A stretch of DNA of 32,000 bases from an uncultured Eggerthellaceae bacterium (GTDB lineage: Bacteria; Actinomycetota; Coriobacteriia; Coriobacteriales; Eggerthellaceae): contig CAKTUD010000002.1 in NCBI GenBank assembly GCA_934617425.1, forward strand, positions 105,136 through 137,135. The letters are read 5' to 3'. A program made the position numbers. Of the stretch, positions 24,001 through 30,000 are shown in pieces. Position 1 is the first letter of the stretch. Each line of letters opens with the position of its first letter.

Positions 24001-27000
24001 CATGTTTGCGTCGACGATGCTCGGAAGCGAGAAGCTTATCGGCTGCTAAAAACCCTAAGGCGAGGAACATCATCCATCATGTTGAACGAGATATATCAAG
24101 CTCTTGATCCCGTGGCGTTTTCGATAGGGCCGTTTTCGGTGCGCTGGTATGCGCTGGCTTACTTAGCGGGGTTTTTATGCGCGGGGTTGCTTATCTGGAG
24201 CCTGGCGAAACGCTGGAAACTGCGTTTTGACGAGGATTCGCTGCTCACGATTATCTTTTGCGTGATGATAGGCGTTATTTTGGGCGCTCGTTTGGGTTAC
24301 TGTTTGTTTTACGGCAACGGCTACTATCTTAAAAAACCGTTGGAAATCTTGATGCTCAATCAGGGCGGCATGAGTTTTCACGGGGGGCTTATCGGGGCCC
24401 TGCTTTCGGGAATAGTTGCGGCGAAGATGACGGGGATTCCGTATCTCACTTTAGCCGATATGGGTGTTGTCGCGGCCCCCATCGGGCTTTTCTTTGGACG
24501 TTGCGCTAACTTTATCAACGGCGAGCTTTGGGGCGCGCCAACCGATGTGCCGTGGGGTGTGATTTTTGGCGGAAGTGCAGGCATGCTGCCGCGTCATCCT
24601 TCGCAGCTTTATGAAGCGCTGCTCGAAGGCGTGTTGCTGTTCGTCGTGCTGTTCGCGATGTCGCGCAGAAGGCCGCCGTTTTGGCGTGGTACGTTTTTGG
24701 GCGTGTTCCTTGTGCTGTACGGGTGCTTTAGGTTTGCGATCGAATTTGTGCGCCAGCCCGATGTTCAGCTGGGATACCTGTTTGGAACCGGTTGGTTCAC
24801 TATGGGGCAGCTGCTATCGTTGCCGCTGATCGCGATAGGTATCGCGGTGTTCGCTTACGCGCAAGCGAAGAAGCTGCCTCAGCAGGGGTGTCCTGGCGCT
24901 TAGGGTTGGGCCGTTGGCGATCGCTACTCTGACTTCATCGTCGAATCCGCCATCAGGTAGAATTGCTCATTCGAAAATTTTATTGCTAACAAGAGTCGCT
25001 GAGGGTCGGCAAGTGGGGATTGCTCGACCCAAGTTTTTGTTGTTTAGCTGAGTAAATGGCGCGCAACGATTTGCGGTGCGCGCCATTTACTTTCCCTATA
25101 AAAAAGTTAGTTAAATGCAAAAAGATTAATACTAACTAATTAAGTTAGCCGAAACATATTGACATCGGTGAGCAAATAGCGATATCTTCCATCATTGAAA
25201 AGTTGTCTAAAGATAACCAAGTTAGATTAACGAAATCTAATGATCTACCAAGATACAAAATCGATGAGGAAGGGAAGCGAATGGCAAACAACAGCACCGA
25301 TTCCAAGTATCGCGTAAGCTACACGCGCCGCGGGATGAACGCCGTATTGGCGGCGACTCTTGCTGCGAGTATGGTCCCCTCGGCCGCGCTGGCCGAAAAC
25401 GTTGCGGGGGGGGGCAGCCTCAGGGCGATAGCCAGGTAAGCGCTCAAGGGCAGCAAGCGGCGGCTGCGGCAACTGCGGCGACGCCTGCCTCTGAGGTAGA
25501 TGTTCTTGCCGCCAACGAGAACCTCGATGCTCAAGCGACGGCCCAATCAAGCGCAGGCGCAACGGCATCCGATGCGTCTTCGAGCCTCGATTTCAAAAAC
25601 CTTGCCGACGGTCAATACACCGTCAAGATGCGCATGATCAATGCGAGCAACCTCAACCAGAACTCGATGTCGAACAGCGCTGTGGCGGGGCTCGACTCCG
25701 ACTACAATCACAGCATCACCGTCGATGTCGTTAACGGAAAGTACTATGCGACGCTTGAGTTCGTCGGCATGAGCATTCTTGGTAGCTACGGTTATCTTGG
25801 CTGGCTTAAGTACTACGCCGAAGGCTGGACATGGACCCAATATAGCCAGCCACAAGGCGATACCATCGCGGCCACGGTTCTTTCCCGTCAGAAGAATGCC
25901 GACGGCAGCGATGTGTACGACAGCTACAACACGCCGGGCAACGATTATTATTTGCCGCAATTCCTTGATGAAACCGGTTTGTATCCTGCGAAAATGCAGC
26001 TCGAAATCGTCCCTCAAGCAATCAGCAATCTAAATCGCAACGATGGCGACGAGGAGAGCGGATATTTACTATCGTATGTCCCCTTGCGCGTAGCCGTTCC
26101 CGTCATGGGCGGGATCGCTCTTTCTAGCGGCGAGCAGAATTGCTATATGCGTGTCGATTGGAACACGCTTTCCGTCAACTATTTGACCACCGACAAGACC
26201 GCTTTGCAAACCGCTATCAACGATGCGAAGGCGCTTGAGAAGGGCTCCAAGAGCGACGACGCGTGGAACGCCCTGCGAAGCGCGATAACCGCGGCATCTG
26301 GGGTGGACAGCGACGACAAGGCCGATCAAGCAAGCATCGATGCGGCTGCAACGGCGCTCAATAGCGCGATCGATACCTTCAAAGCTTCGGCCGACCAGAT
26401 GACAAGCGATCCTTTCGATGGCAAGCTCGACGAAGGACGTTTCTACATTGCGGGGCAAAAATTCGTTGACGCATCGGGCAATGCCATTGCAAGCAGCGAT
26501 GCCGCGCTGAACCAATCGTCGCTCAATATCCGTCGCGTCGATGCCGCCGAGGGCCGCTACGAAGTGAAGCTGCAGACGCGTTATGCTCTCCCGGCTGGTC
26601 CTGTCGTAACGTCTGTGTCATACGAAGCTGCCGACGGCTCGGATTCTTCGGCTAAGGTTTCTCGCAAAGTGCGTGACGACGAAAACAACGTCGGCTATCA
26701 CACCGTCGAATGGCGTATCTACGTTGACGATCTGAGCAAACAGCAAAAATTAACCGTTTCTTACATGCAGGACGGCGCGGAGAAGACGCAGACGCTCTAC
26801 ATCGCTCCGCTGGCGGCGGATGCTAAAGCGGGAAGCATGATGGACGTTTTCTCGGGCACCGCGGATTACTACGGTTCGAGCAATTTCCTTGATGCAACTG
26901 GTTTGTTTATCGTCATCGACGACGCCAAGGCCATCGAGCAGGGCAAGAAGTCTGACGAAGCCTACCAGACGTTGCAGGATGCCATCACTGCTGCCGAAGA

Positions 27001-30000
27001 GGTTTACAACAACACTTCCAAACAGCAAGCTCAGTGCGATTCCGCCGTCGAGACTCTGAACGCCGCAGTTGAGGCATTCAACAGCTCTGCCGACCAGGTT
27101 CAAACCTACGGCATGGAAGCGGGCGTGTGGTACACCAATTCTACCGAGAAATGGAGTGGCACTAAGCAGGGTATCGGCGGTTATACCCCCTTCGATAATC
27201 AAAACGCGTTGTACAAGCTTAACGACGACGGCACCTTCACCGTGCGTGTGAAGACCTATGGCAAGTTGTTCAAGGTCGATCAGGTTGCCTATGGTGACGA
27301 CAAGATTGACGCGACCAAGACTGGTCAATGGAACCAGGGCTTGGGCTACAAGGGTCCTGACACCATGTGGGACTTCACTGTTTCCGATTTGTCGCAGGTG
27401 ACCGCTTATGTAACGGGCGCATACCAAAACGGCACTTCGCTTTCGGCCGAGCCGTTTACGCTAGCCATCGATGGTTTGTCGCAGGGTGGCGATTACGGCT
27501 TTACGAAGGCGGCTTCGCAGCTTGACGATGGAGCGCTTTATCAAGCGTGGGCGTACGGGAAGGCGCTTGCGCGCGACGAATCGAAGCTCGATGCCTATCA
27601 GCAGCTGCAAAGCGCGCTTAGCGCTGCCGAGGGCATTCGTTCGGCGGTGAAGCAGGGCAAAGATACCTACACGCAAGCTGATATCGATGCGGCGACCGCA
27701 CGCGTGAACGAGGCTATCGCGGCATACGAAGCGCCCGTTGCCGACCCGACGTTCGGCTTGGAGGTGGGGGTCTTCTATAACCGCACGCGTCTGAACGATT
27801 CCGTGGCCGACGCGAATGGCACGAGCGTCAAAAGCGACGGCCCCATTTCTTTGGGCAAAACCACGTTTCGCTTGAATGACGACAAGACGTTTGAGGTGAC
27901 GCTTGCCCTGCCCGAAGTTTCCGGCAATTCCGGCAGTACCGTGGAGTCGGTGGAGCTAAGCTCGACCGATGATGCTTCCACCGCAAAGGCCGCAACGCAG
28001 ATCGGCGGCGGTGCGGGCGTGGCGCAGTTCCGTGCGGATGTCGCCTCGCTCGAAAACGGTTTCTATGCGTGGATAACCTATACTGACGCCGCCGGTGTAA
28101 AGCACGAGAATTCCAAGTTCCAGGTGAAGCTTGATTTTTCTGCCGAGGACGGTTACGGCTTCACGAAGCTTGCCAACCAGGACGACACGCGCAAAGACTT
28201 GTATGCGCAAATAGTTGCTGCTCAAAATGTCGAGCAGGGCAATAAGACCACTGCCGCTTGGAACACTTTGCAAGAGGCGATACGCGCAGCGCAGGATGTC
28301 TACAAGCAAGATAACGCTGCCGAGGGTGTCTACACGAGCGCTGCCACAACGCTTGCAAGCGCAGTCGAAGAGTTCAACAAGTCGGCTGAGGGTCCCACGA
28401 TCGAGAAAGATACGCGCTATGGCTTGGTAATCGGGTCGGTATACGAACTGTCATCGCCGTCGAGCAATCTTGTGGTTGTGGGTGCGGCTAAAAACAAGCT
28501 CAGTTCGGCGAACTTCCATTACATCGCACGCGCCGACGGCACCTATGACATCGATCTGTATGCCTGGTCTGCCGATATCGAATCGGTGAAATATTCCACC
28601 TCCAACAACCTTTCGGGCGCTTCCGCTGCGGTGAAGACAGGTGACCATAATTGGCGCATCAACGTGCCGAACATCGCCGGTGTGGCATATGCATGGATAA
28701 CTTACACCGACGCCGATGGCGTGCTGCACGAAGACGAGCAAGTGACTATATCTCACAGCAACCTCGCCAACAAGTCGTTTAGGGATATGAACCAGCTTGA
28801 CAAGGGCTTGCTGTATGCGGCCTATCACGCAGCCGATGATATCGAGTACGGAAGCAAGCCCGAGGGCATATGGGTGAGCTTCTGCGAGGCACGCGATGCG
28901 GCCAGCACGCTGCTGAGGAATTCCAGCGGCAAGGAGCAAAGCGACATCGATGCCGCGCGCGATGCCATGAACGAAGCTGCCGAAGCTTATCGCAATGCGG
29001 CTGACGACCCCAACGGCGGCAAATATGGCCTTGAAGCAGGTGCTTGGTACACCAACTGGAAGGCTCGCCTGACCGACGCCGATGGCAACAAGCTTTTGGC
29101 GGGCGATGAGCAGAACCCGTTTGTTTACGGCAGCGATTATTACGGCATCGAGGTCGATGGTTCGGCGTTCGTCATCCAGATGTGCGGCATCGATAAAGAT
29201 GGCGAGAACAGCATAGCCTCTGTTAAATGGAGCCAAGCCGATGACGAATCCACGGCAAAGGACGCCACCAAGGTGAGCGGCCGCGTGGGTTCTTATAGCC
29301 CTGGTCCTGCCAATTGGCAGCTCGACGGGGTAGAGGACCTTACCAAACCCGTTTACCTGTGGGTAACCTACACCGATCAGCAGGGCGTGGTGCATGAGAA
29401 TGCCAAGTTCGTCAAGAGCCTGTACGGTTTGGGAGCTTCGGCTACGCATGCGTTTGTAAAAACCTCGCGCTCGGTTGATTCCAGTGCTCTTTATAAGGCG
29501 CTCAAGCAGGCAGAGGCAATTGAGAAGGATGCTACCAAGAGCGATCTCGCCTGGGTGACGTTCGACCTTATCCGCGAGACCAATTACGTGTACTACGCGA
29601 ATAAGGCAGACGGCGACACGCAGGAGAACATCGACGTCGCCACGCAGCAGGTGCTCGACGCCATCGAGGCGTACAAGAACTCCGAGAGCAATGACGCGCT
29701 TGATTTCGCGAATTTGTCTGACGGTACTTACACGGTGAATGTCGAGATGCGCAAGGTTGATAATCGCGATTCGCTTTCGATGTCCAACGAGGCCATCAAT
29801 CACGAGGTTGAGCTGACGGTCGAGAACGGCGAGTATTATCTGACCTTTGACTTCCAGGGTTTGAAATATCTTGACAAGGATGGCTATCTGGGAAATCTTA
29901 AGTACTACGACGAAGGTTATACCTACGGCAAGTACGGCTCTCCCGAGGGCGATTTGGTCGATGCTACGGTTATCACAACGCAGAAGGACGCTGAAGGCAA

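What the first reader, a model, noticed from the sequence alone, without database searches (positions are those of the whole stretch)
26399..29690. Five to six copies of an unrecognised ~130-aa module alternating with FIVAR-like helical units
Between the first and second NEAT-like domains the protein repeats a unit of about 210-220 aa, made of an unknown beta-rich-looking module followed by a FIVAR-like unit. The unknown modules share several motifs: YG(L/M)E(A/V)G(V/A)(W/F)Y(T/N)N, (Y/F)(K/R)LNDD(G/K)TF(T/E)V, V(E/A)SV(K/E)(Y/W/L)S...D(D/E)S(T/S)AK, and a striking W(I/V)TYTD..GV.HE(N/D). The Trp codons fall at 28070, 28694 and 29360, that is 624 and 666 nt apart. The first copy (about 26399-26900) is more divergent. 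The N-terminal pattern (G.WYTN ... L.DDGTF.V) loosely parallels the start of the flanking NEAT-like domains (DGTYTVN ... L.V.NG.YY). These modules may therefore be a cryptic NEAT-derived family with a different ligand.
Basis: partly seen in the sequence, partly recalled or inferred. Interest (0 to 1): 0.7.

Follow-up and report, generated by a model that had tools for sequence, protein, structure and literature searches.

The report
Hidden NEAT-fold repeats in heme receptor
A giant surface protein that heads a heme-uptake operon of an uncultured gut-type Eggerthellaceae bacterium carries five very divergent copies of the NEAT heme-receptor fold that standard domain models miss and that have lost every known heme-binding residue, so they probably dock something other than free heme or act as a stalk.

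Summary
The protein encoded at 25628-31456(+) contains five (not six) copies of a 133-164 aa beta-rich module. Each copy is followed by a FIVAR-type three-helix unit, and all five lie between the first and second recognised NEAT domains. No Pfam, NCBIfam or PDB sequence model detects the module.

- Two independent AlphaFold models (pLDDT 75 and 90) retrieve almost only NEAT domains from the PDB.
- The module profile matches Pfam-certified NEAT domains of other proteins (hhalign 93-97%; reversed controls at most 1%).
- A sequence profile gives Listeria Hbp2-N2 and Shr NEAT as the top PDB hits.

The modules lack both the S/YXXXY motif and the two axial methionines. The three canonical NEATs of the same protein keep those methionines, as Shr does.

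The gene heads a conserved operon: Shp-like gene, heme ABC transporter, DUF454. The module occurs only in about 17 protein clusters of one clade.

The function is inferred, not shown. The most likely role is ligand or hemoprotein docking plus spacing in a Shr-like receptor.

Side finding: poly-G tracts in the 5' end vary between samples (G8/G9/G10) in an ortholog, and the window copy is out of frame. This suggests phase variation.

The parts
25104..25240 (+). AT-rich promoter region with three AAGTTAG heptamers and two IdeR/DtxR-like boxes; candidate iron- or heme-responsive operator
   Evidence: All three AAGTTAG in the 32-kb window lie here. The best window-wide matches to TWAGGTWAGSCTWACCTWA are at 25140 (15/19) and 25222 (14/19). 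Similar AAGTTA palindromes lie upstream of orthologs. Regulation itself was not tested.
25281..25414 (+). True start codon, signal peptide and G9 homopolymer (25406-25414) that breaks the reading frame
   Evidence: ATG at 25281 with an RBS encodes MANNSTDSKYRVSYTRRGMNAVLAATLAASMVPSAALAENVAGGG. It is out of frame with the main ORF, and adding one G restores a full-length ORF. Orthologs have this signal peptide in frame.
25586..26152 (+). NEAT1, canonical, Shr-type with SMSN lip and VPVM
   Evidence: NEAT HMM hit; Pfam NEAT hit for the protein. The first strand lies upstream of the called ATG.
26183..26398 (+). FIVAR unit 1
   Evidence: Pfam PF07554, 36.5 bits, above the cut-off.
26408..26899 (+). 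Module A, the most divergent NEAT-fold copy; no His in the hairpin
   Evidence: HMM envelope; alignments A1/A2; BLAST to D and E at E 1e-3 to 9e-3.
26903..27094 (+). FIVAR-like helical unit after A
   Evidence: Pfam FIVAR 23.4 bits, sub-threshold; aligns with certified FIVARs.
27098..27532 (+). Module B
27548..27742 (+). FIVAR-like helical unit after B
   Evidence: Pfam FIVAR 22.5 bits, sub-threshold.
27743..28189 (+). Module C, modelled at pLDDT 90 with a NEAT fold; WITYTDAAGVKHEN hairpin, His826 codon at 28103-28105
28190..28408 (+). Helical unit after C, FIVAR-like by alignment only
   Evidence: No Pfam hit at E<=0.1; aligns with FIVAR units.
28409..28807 (+). Module D; lip ...SSANFHY, hairpin WITYTDADGVLHED
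28808..29014 (+). Helical unit after D
29015..29485 (+). Module E; aromatic lip NPFVYG, hairpin WVTYTDQQGVVHEN; modelled at pLDDT 75.5 with a NEAT fold
29486..29689 (+). Helical unit after E, linking E to NEAT2
29690..30193 (+). NEAT2, canonical; homolog of S. pyogenes Shr NEAT2 with both axial Met positions kept (SLSMSN, VFVPVME)
   Evidence: phmmer to 9w5y_A, E 9.5e-25, with alignment. Met ligands of Shr are from PMC12796733.
30245..30646 (+). Two FIVAR units between NEAT2 and NEAT3
   Evidence: Pfam FIVAR 21.6 and 33 bits.
30671..31117 (+). NEAT3, canonical, Shr-type (KSMSD, VFVPVMEE); the most conserved part of the protein (87% to P0012)
31328..31456 (+). C-terminal sorting signal: LAAKTG-like motif (orthologs LAKTG, LNKTG, LGKTG), hydrophobic helix, RRRFGKQEGEE tail
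   Evidence: Read from the translation. Sortase anchoring is inferred.
31460..32000 (+). Start of the next gene, a Shp-like cell-surface heme-binding protein that runs off the window
   Evidence: Pfam PF11545, E 7.8e-44. The full gene and downstream Peripla_BP_2 and FecCD genes are in L001.

Best explanation
Shown:
- The five modules are highly diverged NEAT-fold domains. Each is an eight-stranded beta-sandwich with a lip before beta2 and a beta7-beta8 hairpin.
- They arose within a Shr-like heme receptor and alternate with FIVAR three-helix units.
- They have lost both kinds of known heme ligands: the S/YXXXY motif, and the two axial methionines that the three canonical NEAT domains of the same protein retain.
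- The gene is the first of a conserved operon: giant receptor, Shp-like heme carrier, heme-type ABC transporter (Peripla_BP_2, FecCD, ABC ATPase), DUF454. The host is an uncultured Eggerthellaceae bacterium.

Inferred:
- The protein is sortase-anchored.
- The modules act as non-heme-binding docking domains that capture a hemoprotein or other host or dietary ligand. Each module type would use its own conserved lip and the W.TYTD..G..H hairpin.
- Together with the helical units, the modules form a long stalk that places the capture site and NEAT1 beyond the wall.
- Heme would then pass through the methionine-ligated NEAT domains to Shp and the transporter. This parallels the Hb-binding NEAT, helical linker, heme-binding NEAT unit of IsdH and IsdB.

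My confidence that the modules are NEAT-derived and lack the canonical heme ligands is about 0.85. My confidence in the docking role is about 0.35-0.4.
For: Repeat reality.

Fold:
- Module E model: pLDDT 75.5, pTM 0.76. Its top 18 PDB hits are all NEAT.
- Module C model: pLDDT 90, pTM 0.86. Its top hits are 4myp_A (E 7.5e-4, TMt 0.66), 3sik (0.67-0.68), 4h8q (0.70), then IsdC, IsdH, IsdB, IsdA and Shp.
- The secondary-structure order of the model matches NEAT: beta1a, beta1b, short helix, beta2-beta8.

Homology:
- The module HMM hits domains in P0024/P0035/P0037. Five of these form one class (t1), and the four that were scanned with Pfam all pass Pfam NEAT's gathering score with 39.7-59.3 bits against a 32.8 cut-off.
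- hhalign of modules against that class gives 93.2%, P 2.8e-7.
- hhalign against a second, sub-threshold NEAT-like class gives 96.7%.
- The t1 class (Pfam-passing) against Shr-type NEATs gives 95.1%.
- Reversed controls give at most 1.1%.
- Profile A2 against PDB sequences gives NEATs as the top two hits: 4myp_A at E 0.0039 and Shr 9w5z_A at E 0.084.

Ligand loss:
- The axial Met positions map to the residue after YTD (Ala, Ala, Gln in C, D, E) and to a variable lip position.
- There is no YXXXY in beta8.
- Canonical NEAT2 aligns with Shr NEAT2 and keeps both Met residues (PMC12796733).

Context: the operon is conserved in L001 and L081-L087. The Shp-like gene starts at 31460.

Type-specific conservation:
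- Lips are conserved within each type: E has (N/S)PF[YFV]x, D has FHY/TNY/SDY, C has GP(I/F)S.GK, B has TPF.
- His is invariant in all C, D and E copies, although these copies share only 34-63% identity across orthologs.
- The order of module types is conserved: A-B-C-D-E, A-B-C-E, A-A'-D-E.
Against: - Direct profile comparison of the modules with the Shr-type NEATs of the same proteins is negative (prob 2.6%).
- Foldseek E-values are modest (1e-3 to 1e-2), and query-normalised TM-scores are only 0.5-0.58.
- The link to NEAT depends partly on intermediate sequences.
- No ligand was tested.
- The strict Hb-binding motif (F/Y)YH(Y/F) is absent.
- hhalign against IsdH N1/N2 is negative. The same test is also negative for bona fide NEATs, so it is uninformative.
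- Copy number varies from 3 to 5, and C, D and E diverge faster than the canonical NEATs. Both facts fit a passive spacer equally well.
- The model coordinates could not be inspected, so pocket geometry is unknown.
Confidence: 0.55

Rival explanations
1. Passive stalk. The modules are decayed NEAT domains with no ligand. Together with the FIVAR bundles they only extend the receptor through the cell wall, like the Ig-like or G5-E spacers of other Gram-positive surface proteins.
For: - All known heme ligands are lost.
- Copy number varies from 3 to 5 between orthologs.
- C, D and E are 54-63% identical to the closest ortholog, against 75-87% for NEAT2 and NEAT3.
- Honsa et al. 2014 already proposed a structural role for NEATs that lack motifs (PMC4143258).
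Against: - The lip and the beta7-beta8 hairpin are the NEAT ligand-contact sites, and here they are the best conserved stretches within each module type. His is invariant in every C, D and E copy.
- The order of module types is conserved, which a generic spacer does not need.
Confidence: 0.25
2. Non-canonical heme binders. Modules C, D and E still bind heme, using the invariant His and/or Tyr of W.TYTD..G..HE(N/D) as new axial ligands. The protein would then carry up to six heme sites.
For: - The motif lies on the beta7-beta8 hairpin, which forms the floor of the heme pocket in NEAT domains (PMC7815599; model strands).
- His and Tyr are invariant in C, D and E.
- Some NEATs bind heme with unusual ligands (PMC7815599; PMC4143258).
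Against: - There is no Ser/Met in the lip and no YXXXY.
- hhalign places the His in an insertion relative to certified NEATs.
- Types A and B have no His.
- IsdH-N2 has HEDYD at the YXXXY-equivalent position and does not bind heme (PMC4143258).
Confidence: 0.12
3. Not NEAT-related. The modules are an unrelated Ig-like beta-sandwich that resembles NEAT by convergence or through generic sandwich geometry.
For: - Direct hhalign to the Shr-type NEATs is negative.
- Pfam NEAT never hits the modules.
- Foldseek E-values are weak and sequence identity to the hits is 5-19%.
Against: - NEAT domains make up nearly the whole top-50 list for two independently built models.
- hhalign gives 93% to Pfam-certified NEATs over 102-123 columns, with reversed controls at most 1%.
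- The modules sit in a protein family whose other beta-domains are all NEATs.
Confidence: 0.05

Closest known systems
Hb-binding, non-heme NEAT domains of S. aureus IsdH (N1, N2) and IsdB (N1), with their helical linker and heme-binding NEAT
   Same: - NEAT fold without the S/YXXXY motif.
- Each domain is followed by a three-helix unit and then a heme-binding NEAT (module E, helical unit, NEAT2).
- The lip is aromatic-rich in type E (NPF[YVF]x) and has FHY in type D.
- Both sit in a sortase-type surface receptor of a heme-uptake locus (PMC7815599).
   Different: - The strict (F/Y)YH(Y/F) motif is absent.
- No sequence-level relation is detectable.
- There are five copies of five types instead of one or two.
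- The linkers are FIVAR-type.
- The partner NEATs use Met, not Tyr.
- The host is an actinobacterial commensal-type organism, not a Firmicute pathogen.
Streptococcus pyogenes Shr (shr-shp-htsABC locus)
   Same: - The canonical NEATs are clear homologs of Shr NEAT2 (E 9.5e-25) and keep both axial Met positions.
- The gene is followed by a Shp-like gene and a heme ABC transporter.
- A three-helix linker precedes a NEAT domain (PMC12796733).
   Different: - Shr captures hemoglobin with two HID (DUF1533) domains and has an LRR region.
- This protein has neither. It carries five degenerate NEAT-fold modules and about nine FIVAR units in the corresponding part.
Divergent NEAT domains of P0024/P0035/P0037 (metagenomic NEAT/FIVAR proteins)
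   Same: They are the nearest sequence relatives of the modules (hhalign 93-97%). They share the LE.GK.Y start, DGTY.V.L, the ..V.DLS.. strand and the .V.Y..G hairpin, and they also alternate with FIVAR-like helices.
   Different: - One class passes Pfam NEAT and keeps SM in the lip and PM at the end of beta7, so it is probably heme-binding.
- The other class keeps only the lip Met.
- The window's modules keep neither.
- Together this looks like stepwise ligand loss.
Shp (PF11545), a NEAT-like fold that sequence searches with NEAT models miss
   Same: It is a precedent for a NEAT-fold domain with little sequence similarity to NEAT. It appears among the fold hits (2q7a, TM 0.44-0.47).
   Different: Shp binds heme with two Met residues. 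It ranks well below true NEATs as a fold match, and there is no Pfam PF11545 hit to the modules.

Membership tests
NEAT domain (Pfam PF05031) | Match to the Pfam NEAT HMM at or above the gathering score | tested here: not met
   The whole-protein scan finds only the canonical NEATs. The five modules scanned singly at E<=10 give no NEAT hit.
NEAT domain (Pfam PF05031) | NEAT fold: eight-stranded beta-sandwich with a lip (3-10 helix) before beta2 and a beta7-beta8 hairpin | tested here: met
   Two AlphaFold models (pLDDT 75.5 and 90) were used. PDB fold hits are almost exclusively NEAT, with TMt 0.66-0.71.
NEAT domain (Pfam PF05031) | Detectable homology to certified NEAT domains | tested here: met
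   hhalign to Pfam-passing NEATs of P0024/P0035/P0037 gives 93.2%, P 2.8e-7. Reversed controls give at most 1.1%. The comparison with Shr-type NEATs is negative when done directly.
Heme-binding NEAT (Tyr type) | Ser in the lip plus YXXXY in strand beta8 | tested here: not met
   No YXXXY is present in any of the 27 non-redundant modules. Motif definition is from PMC7815599.
Heme-binding NEAT (Shr, bis-Met type) | Axial Met in the lip (SM) and axial Met at the end of beta7 | tested here: not met
   The mapped positions hold Ala, Ala, Gln and variable residues. The canonical NEATs of the same protein keep both Met residues. Ligands are from PMC12796733.
Heme-binding NEAT (any type) | Binds heme | not testable with these tools
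   Needs spectroscopy on recombinant modules.
Hb-binding NEAT subclass (IsdH-N1/N2, IsdB-N1) | [quoted passage not shown] | tested here: not met
   The strict motif is absent. The window's D has NFHY at the lip/beta2 border and E has PFVY in the lip; orthologs have MFHY and PFYY. This is only a partial resemblance.
Hb-binding NEAT subclass (IsdH-N1/N2, IsdB-N1) | No S/YXXXY; followed by a helical linker and a heme-binding NEAT | tested here: met
   Module E, then a FIVAR-like unit, then Shr-type NEAT2.
Hb-binding NEAT subclass (IsdH-N1/N2, IsdB-N1) | Binds hemoglobin | not testable with these tools
   Needs binding assays. hhalign to verified IsdH N1/N2 sequences is negative, but it is also negative for true NEATs.
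Shr-type hemoprotein receptor (whole protein) | Met-ligated NEAT domains, with the gene adjacent to shp and a heme ABC transporter | tested here: met
Shr-type hemoprotein receptor (whole protein) | N-terminal HID (DUF1533) hemoglobin-interacting domains and an LRR region | tested here: not met
   No such Pfam hits in the whole protein.
FIVAR (PF07554), helical units | Match to the Pfam FIVAR HMM | tested here: inconclusive
   The whole protein scores 70.6 bits over 5 stretches. Taken singly, 2 units are above the cut-off, 3 are sub-threshold and 3 give no hit. All align with the certified units at 26-37% identity.

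The most novel reading that the evidence does not exclude
The modules are a new functional class of NEAT-fold receptor domains. They lack heme ligands, and each of the five types is tuned through its own lip and the W.TYTD..G..H hairpin to a different hemoprotein or host or dietary ligand. 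This would give a gut actinobacterium a multi-specific, phase-variable heme-piracy receptor that works without the HID domains of Shr or the aromatic motif of IsdH and IsdB.
Probability: 0.3. Interest if true: 0.65.

Novelty: new variant of a known kind. Interest (0 to 1): 0.45.

Why it matters
- NEAT domains are counted and studied almost only in Firmicute pathogens. Pfam sees three NEATs in this protein, but fold and profile evidence show eight, so surveys based on the Pfam model undercount the superfamily.
- The protein shows a graded series within one protein family: Met-ligated NEATs, then half-ligated relatives, then ligand-free modules. That series is a natural system for asking how a heme chaperone fold is turned into something else.
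- If the modules dock hemoproteins, they are a third solution to hemoglobin or hemoprotein capture, after the IsdH/IsdB aromatic-motif NEATs and the Shr HID domains. They would also occur in a commensal-type Eggerthellaceae lineage.
- Apparent phase variation adds to the case that this surface receptor is under host, immune or phage pressure.

Tried and rejected
1. The word-indexed search of 5.8 billion proteins with profile A1 found nothing. The exhaustive search then found only four true representatives. P0005-P0010 are weak hits; the only one inspected, P0005, is a repetitive, apparently unrelated protein, and the rest were not examined.
2. Direct hhalign of the modules against the Shr-type NEATs was negative. 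The relation appeared only through Pfam-certified divergent NEATs.
3. The genome-contig scan with the module region gave no relative, and profile A2 had no conserved stretch to scan with. The scan with NEAT3 returned 79 loci, mostly Lachnospiraceae and other Clostridia at 36-49% identity, and none encodes a module.
4. Sub-threshold Pfam hits of single modules (Gp23, Big_13, CopC, MAM33, mIF3; E 0.01-0.13) were treated as noise, because each hit only one copy.
5. A special link to the Hb-binding NEATs was tested with verified IsdH N1/N2 sequences. The result was negative, and it was also negative for bona fide NEATs, so the test is uninformative.
6. The resemblance between HE(N/D) in the modules and HEDYD in IsdH-N2 (PMC4143258) could not be put in register and remains an untested lead.
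7. Antisense ORFs across the region (28451-31831, 26750-27427, 27956-28309, 26069-26515) have no Pfam hits and are taken as shadow ORFs of a GC-rich gene.
8. No source name was available for the genome. EF-Ts places it nearest Berryella intestinalis and Gordonibacter at 78%.

Full report
**What is there**

The window is chromosomal DNA of about 53-62% G+C. Upstream of the large gene lie rpsB, tsf, aroA, a LytR-CpsA-Psr gene, nifU-like and lgt. The large gene is listed as ORF 25628-31456(+), 1942 aa.

Pfam recognises only NEAT (PF05031) and FIVAR (PF07554) in it. NCBIfam gives only FIVAR-region similarities.

EF-Ts of the window is 78% identical to that of Berryella intestinalis and Gordonibacter. 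It is 90-96% identical to many unnamed metagenomic proteins. The organism is therefore an uncultured Eggerthellaceae (Coriobacteriia) lineage. The identical protein (P0011) is present in NCBI and ENA assemblies on a contig of about 299 kb.

**Check of the observation**

- Modules B, C, D and E match each other at BLAST E 4e-6 to 2e-16 and 22-32% identity. Module A matches D and E at E 1e-3 to 9e-3.
- All five align in register.
- An HMM finds exactly five copies here, so the count is five, not six.
- The units between modules align with the Pfam-positive FIVARs of the same protein at 26-37% identity. Taken singly, only some reach even sub-threshold Pfam scores.
- The modules have no NEAT hit or any other credible Pfam, NCBIfam or PDB sequence hit; the only Pfam matches are single-copy hits at E 0.01-0.13.

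**What the module is**

*Fold.* An AlphaFold model of module E from the five-sequence alignment reached pLDDT 75.5. Its top 18 PDB fold matches are all NEAT domains.

A second, independent model was made for module C with a 37-sequence alignment. It reached pLDDT 90 and pTM 0.86. It again retrieved NEAT domains almost exclusively:
- Hbp2-N2 at E 7.5e-4
- IsdX1
- IsdX2-N5 at TMt 0.70
- IsdC, IsdA, IsdB N1/N2 and IsdH N1/N2/N3

The order of secondary-structure elements matches NEAT: beta1a, beta1b, a short helix where the NEAT lip lies, then beta2 to beta8.

*Sequence.* The direct profile comparison with the canonical NEATs of this family is negative. However, the enlarged module HMM hits domains in three other NEAT/FIVAR proteins, P0024, P0035 and P0037.
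- One class of these domains (LEAGKTYSVPV...SM...PMGSSPS) passes Pfam NEAT's gathering score at 39.7-59.3 bits.
- The other class is sub-threshold, with E 0.0026 over the whole NEAT profile.

hhalign results:

| Comparison | Probability | P-value |
|---|---|---|
| Modules vs certified NEAT class | 93.2% | 2.8e-7 |
| Modules vs second class | 96.7% | 4.1e-10 |
| Certified class vs Shr-type NEATs | 95.1% | 2.9e-8 |
| Four reversed-sequence controls | 0.2-1.1% | 0.047-0.28 |

The alignment puts the module's YGLE.G.WY on NEAT strand beta1 and DDGTF.V on beta2-beta3. The A2 profile searched against PDB sequences gives Hbp2-N2 (E 0.0039) and Shr NEAT1 (E 0.084) as its top two hits.

**Ligand residues**

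- Heme-binding NEATs use a lip Ser plus YXXXY on beta8 (PMC7815599).
- In S. pyogenes Shr, they use two axial methionines instead: Ser389-Met390 and Met475 in NEAT1, and Met997 and Met1107 in NEAT2 (PMC12796733).
- The window's NEAT2 is a clear homolog of Shr NEAT2 (E 9.5e-25) and keeps SLSMSN and VFVPVME. NEAT1 and NEAT3 have the same motifs.
- In the modules, the positions that align with these methionines hold Ala, Ala and Gln (after YTD) and variable lip residues. No YXXXY occurs in any of 27 non-redundant copies.

The relatives therefore form a series:
1. Shr-type NEATs with both Met.
2. The certified divergent class with both Met.
3. The second class with only the lip Met.
4. The modules with none.

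What the modules do conserve is type-specific:
- An invariant His and Tyr in W.TYTD..G..H in types C, D and E.
- A distinct lip in each type: (N/S)PF[YFV]x in E, FHY/TNY/SDY in D, GP(I/F)S.GK in C, and TPF in B.

**Distribution and context**

An exhaustive HMM search of 1.84 billion representative proteins found the module in only four representatives. All four are orthologous giant NEAT/FIVAR proteins. At 90% clustering there are 17 clusters, some with 24-134 member sequences.

Architectures differ between clusters: A-B-C-D-E, A-B-C-E, A-B-C, A-A'-D-E and A-D-E.

Compared with the closest ortholog, C, D and E are 55-63% identical. A and B are 81-83%, and NEAT2 and NEAT3 are 75-87%. NEAT1 comes in two very different forms, which points to mosaicism.

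None of 79 GTDB-representative loci with related NEAT3 domains carries a module.

In every locus examined the gene is followed by a Shp-like gene (PF11545), then Peripla_BP_2, FecCD, an ABC ATPase and DUF454. The upstream neighbours differ. The Shp-like gene begins at 31460 in the window.

The C-terminus carries an LAAKTG-like motif (orthologs have LAKTG, LNKTG or LGKTG), a hydrophobic helix and an RRRFGK tail. I read this as a sortase sorting signal; that reading is an inference.

**How it most likely works**

Shown: the protein is a Shr-like receptor at the head of a heme-uptake operon. It has three Met-type NEATs and five ligand-free NEAT-fold modules on FIVAR spacers.

Inferred: the modules replace the hemoglobin-capturing parts that Shr (HID domains) and IsdH/IsdB (aromatic-motif NEATs) possess. 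They would dock a hemoprotein or other ligand through the lip and hairpin face, and they would also extend the receptor from the wall. Heme would then move through NEAT1/2/3 to Shp and the ABC transporter.

Rivals are a pure stalk, non-canonical heme binding through the conserved His or Tyr, and an unrelated sandwich fold. The evidence cannot separate docking from stalk. It argues against the unrelated-fold reading.

**Comparison and novelty**

This is not a new kind of system. It is a new, sequence-cryptic variant of the NEAT fold inside a known type of heme-uptake locus.

Honsa et al. 2014 already listed Eggerthella as one of only two non-Firmicute exceptions (with an unclassified Mollicutes bacterium) carrying NEAT domains. 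They also noted that many NEATs lack heme motifs (PMC4143258). No paper in the searched library links NEAT domains with Eggerthellaceae.

**Limits**

- Model coordinates could not be inspected, so the pocket geometry is unknown.
- Foldseek E-values are modest.

**Side findings**

*Frame break and poly-G tracts.* The called ORF lacks its N-terminus. An ATG at 25281 opens a signal peptide that is thrown out of frame by a G9 run at 25406-25414. This is the only G/C run of 7 or more in the window, and G10 would restore the frame.

In the P0017-type ortholog, a different poly-G tract at codons 13-16 varies between samples:
- G9 (in frame) in two samples.
- G10 in two samples.
- G8, with the following AA reduced to A (a net 2-nt loss), in one sample.

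The out-of-frame versions are called as N-terminally truncated genes. This pattern is typical of slipped-strand phase variation.

*Promoter.* All three AAGTTAG heptamers of the window, and its best DtxR/IdeR-like boxes, lie in the promoter region.

Noticed in passing
window 25281-25627, G9 at 25406-25414; loci L083-L087 about 38 nt into the gene: The giant gene is frame-broken by a G9 run just after its signal peptide, and G10 would restore the frame. An orthologous gene has a different poly-G tract at codons 13-16 that is G9 (in frame), G10 or G8 in different metagenome samples. This pattern suggests slipped-strand phase variation of the receptor.
   Followed up: partly
window 25104-25240: All three AAGTTAG heptamers of the 32-kb window, an imperfect palindrome CTAACTAATTAAGTTAG, and the two best DtxR/IdeR-consensus matches (15/19 and 14/19) cluster in the promoter of the giant gene. 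Ortholog promoters hold similar AAGTTA palindromes. This is a candidate iron-responsive operator.
   Followed up: partly
window 25586-26152 compared with P0013, P0016, P0002, P0017: NEAT1 exists in two very different forms among otherwise close orthologs: 83% identity to P0012 but 36% to P0013. This suggests recombination or mosaicism at the receptor tip.
   Followed up: partly
window 31328-31456: The C-terminal sorting signal has a non-LPXTG motif. It is LAAKTG here and LAKTG, LNKTG or LGKTG in orthologs, which resembles the LAXTG motifs recalled from memory for actinobacterial class E sortases. No sortase gene was looked for.
   Followed up: no
window 31460-32000 and L001 8827-11823: The downstream Shp-like protein is about 410-436 aa, much longer than the 148-position PF11545 domain profile. 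It is followed by Peripla_BP_2, FecCD, an ABC ATPase and DUF454 in all loci. The extra length of the Shp-like protein was not examined.
   Followed up: no
window 28451-31831 (- strand): A 1126-aa antisense ORF overlaps the gene. It has no Pfam hit and is taken as a shadow ORF of a GC-rich coding region.
   Followed up: yes
P0024 (2763 aa), P0035, P0037: Other metagenomic NEAT/FIVAR proteins carry arrays of two divergent NEAT classes, one of which has lost the C-terminal axial Met. These arrays may be a second, independent example of NEAT degeneration and were not placed taxonomically.
   Followed up: partly
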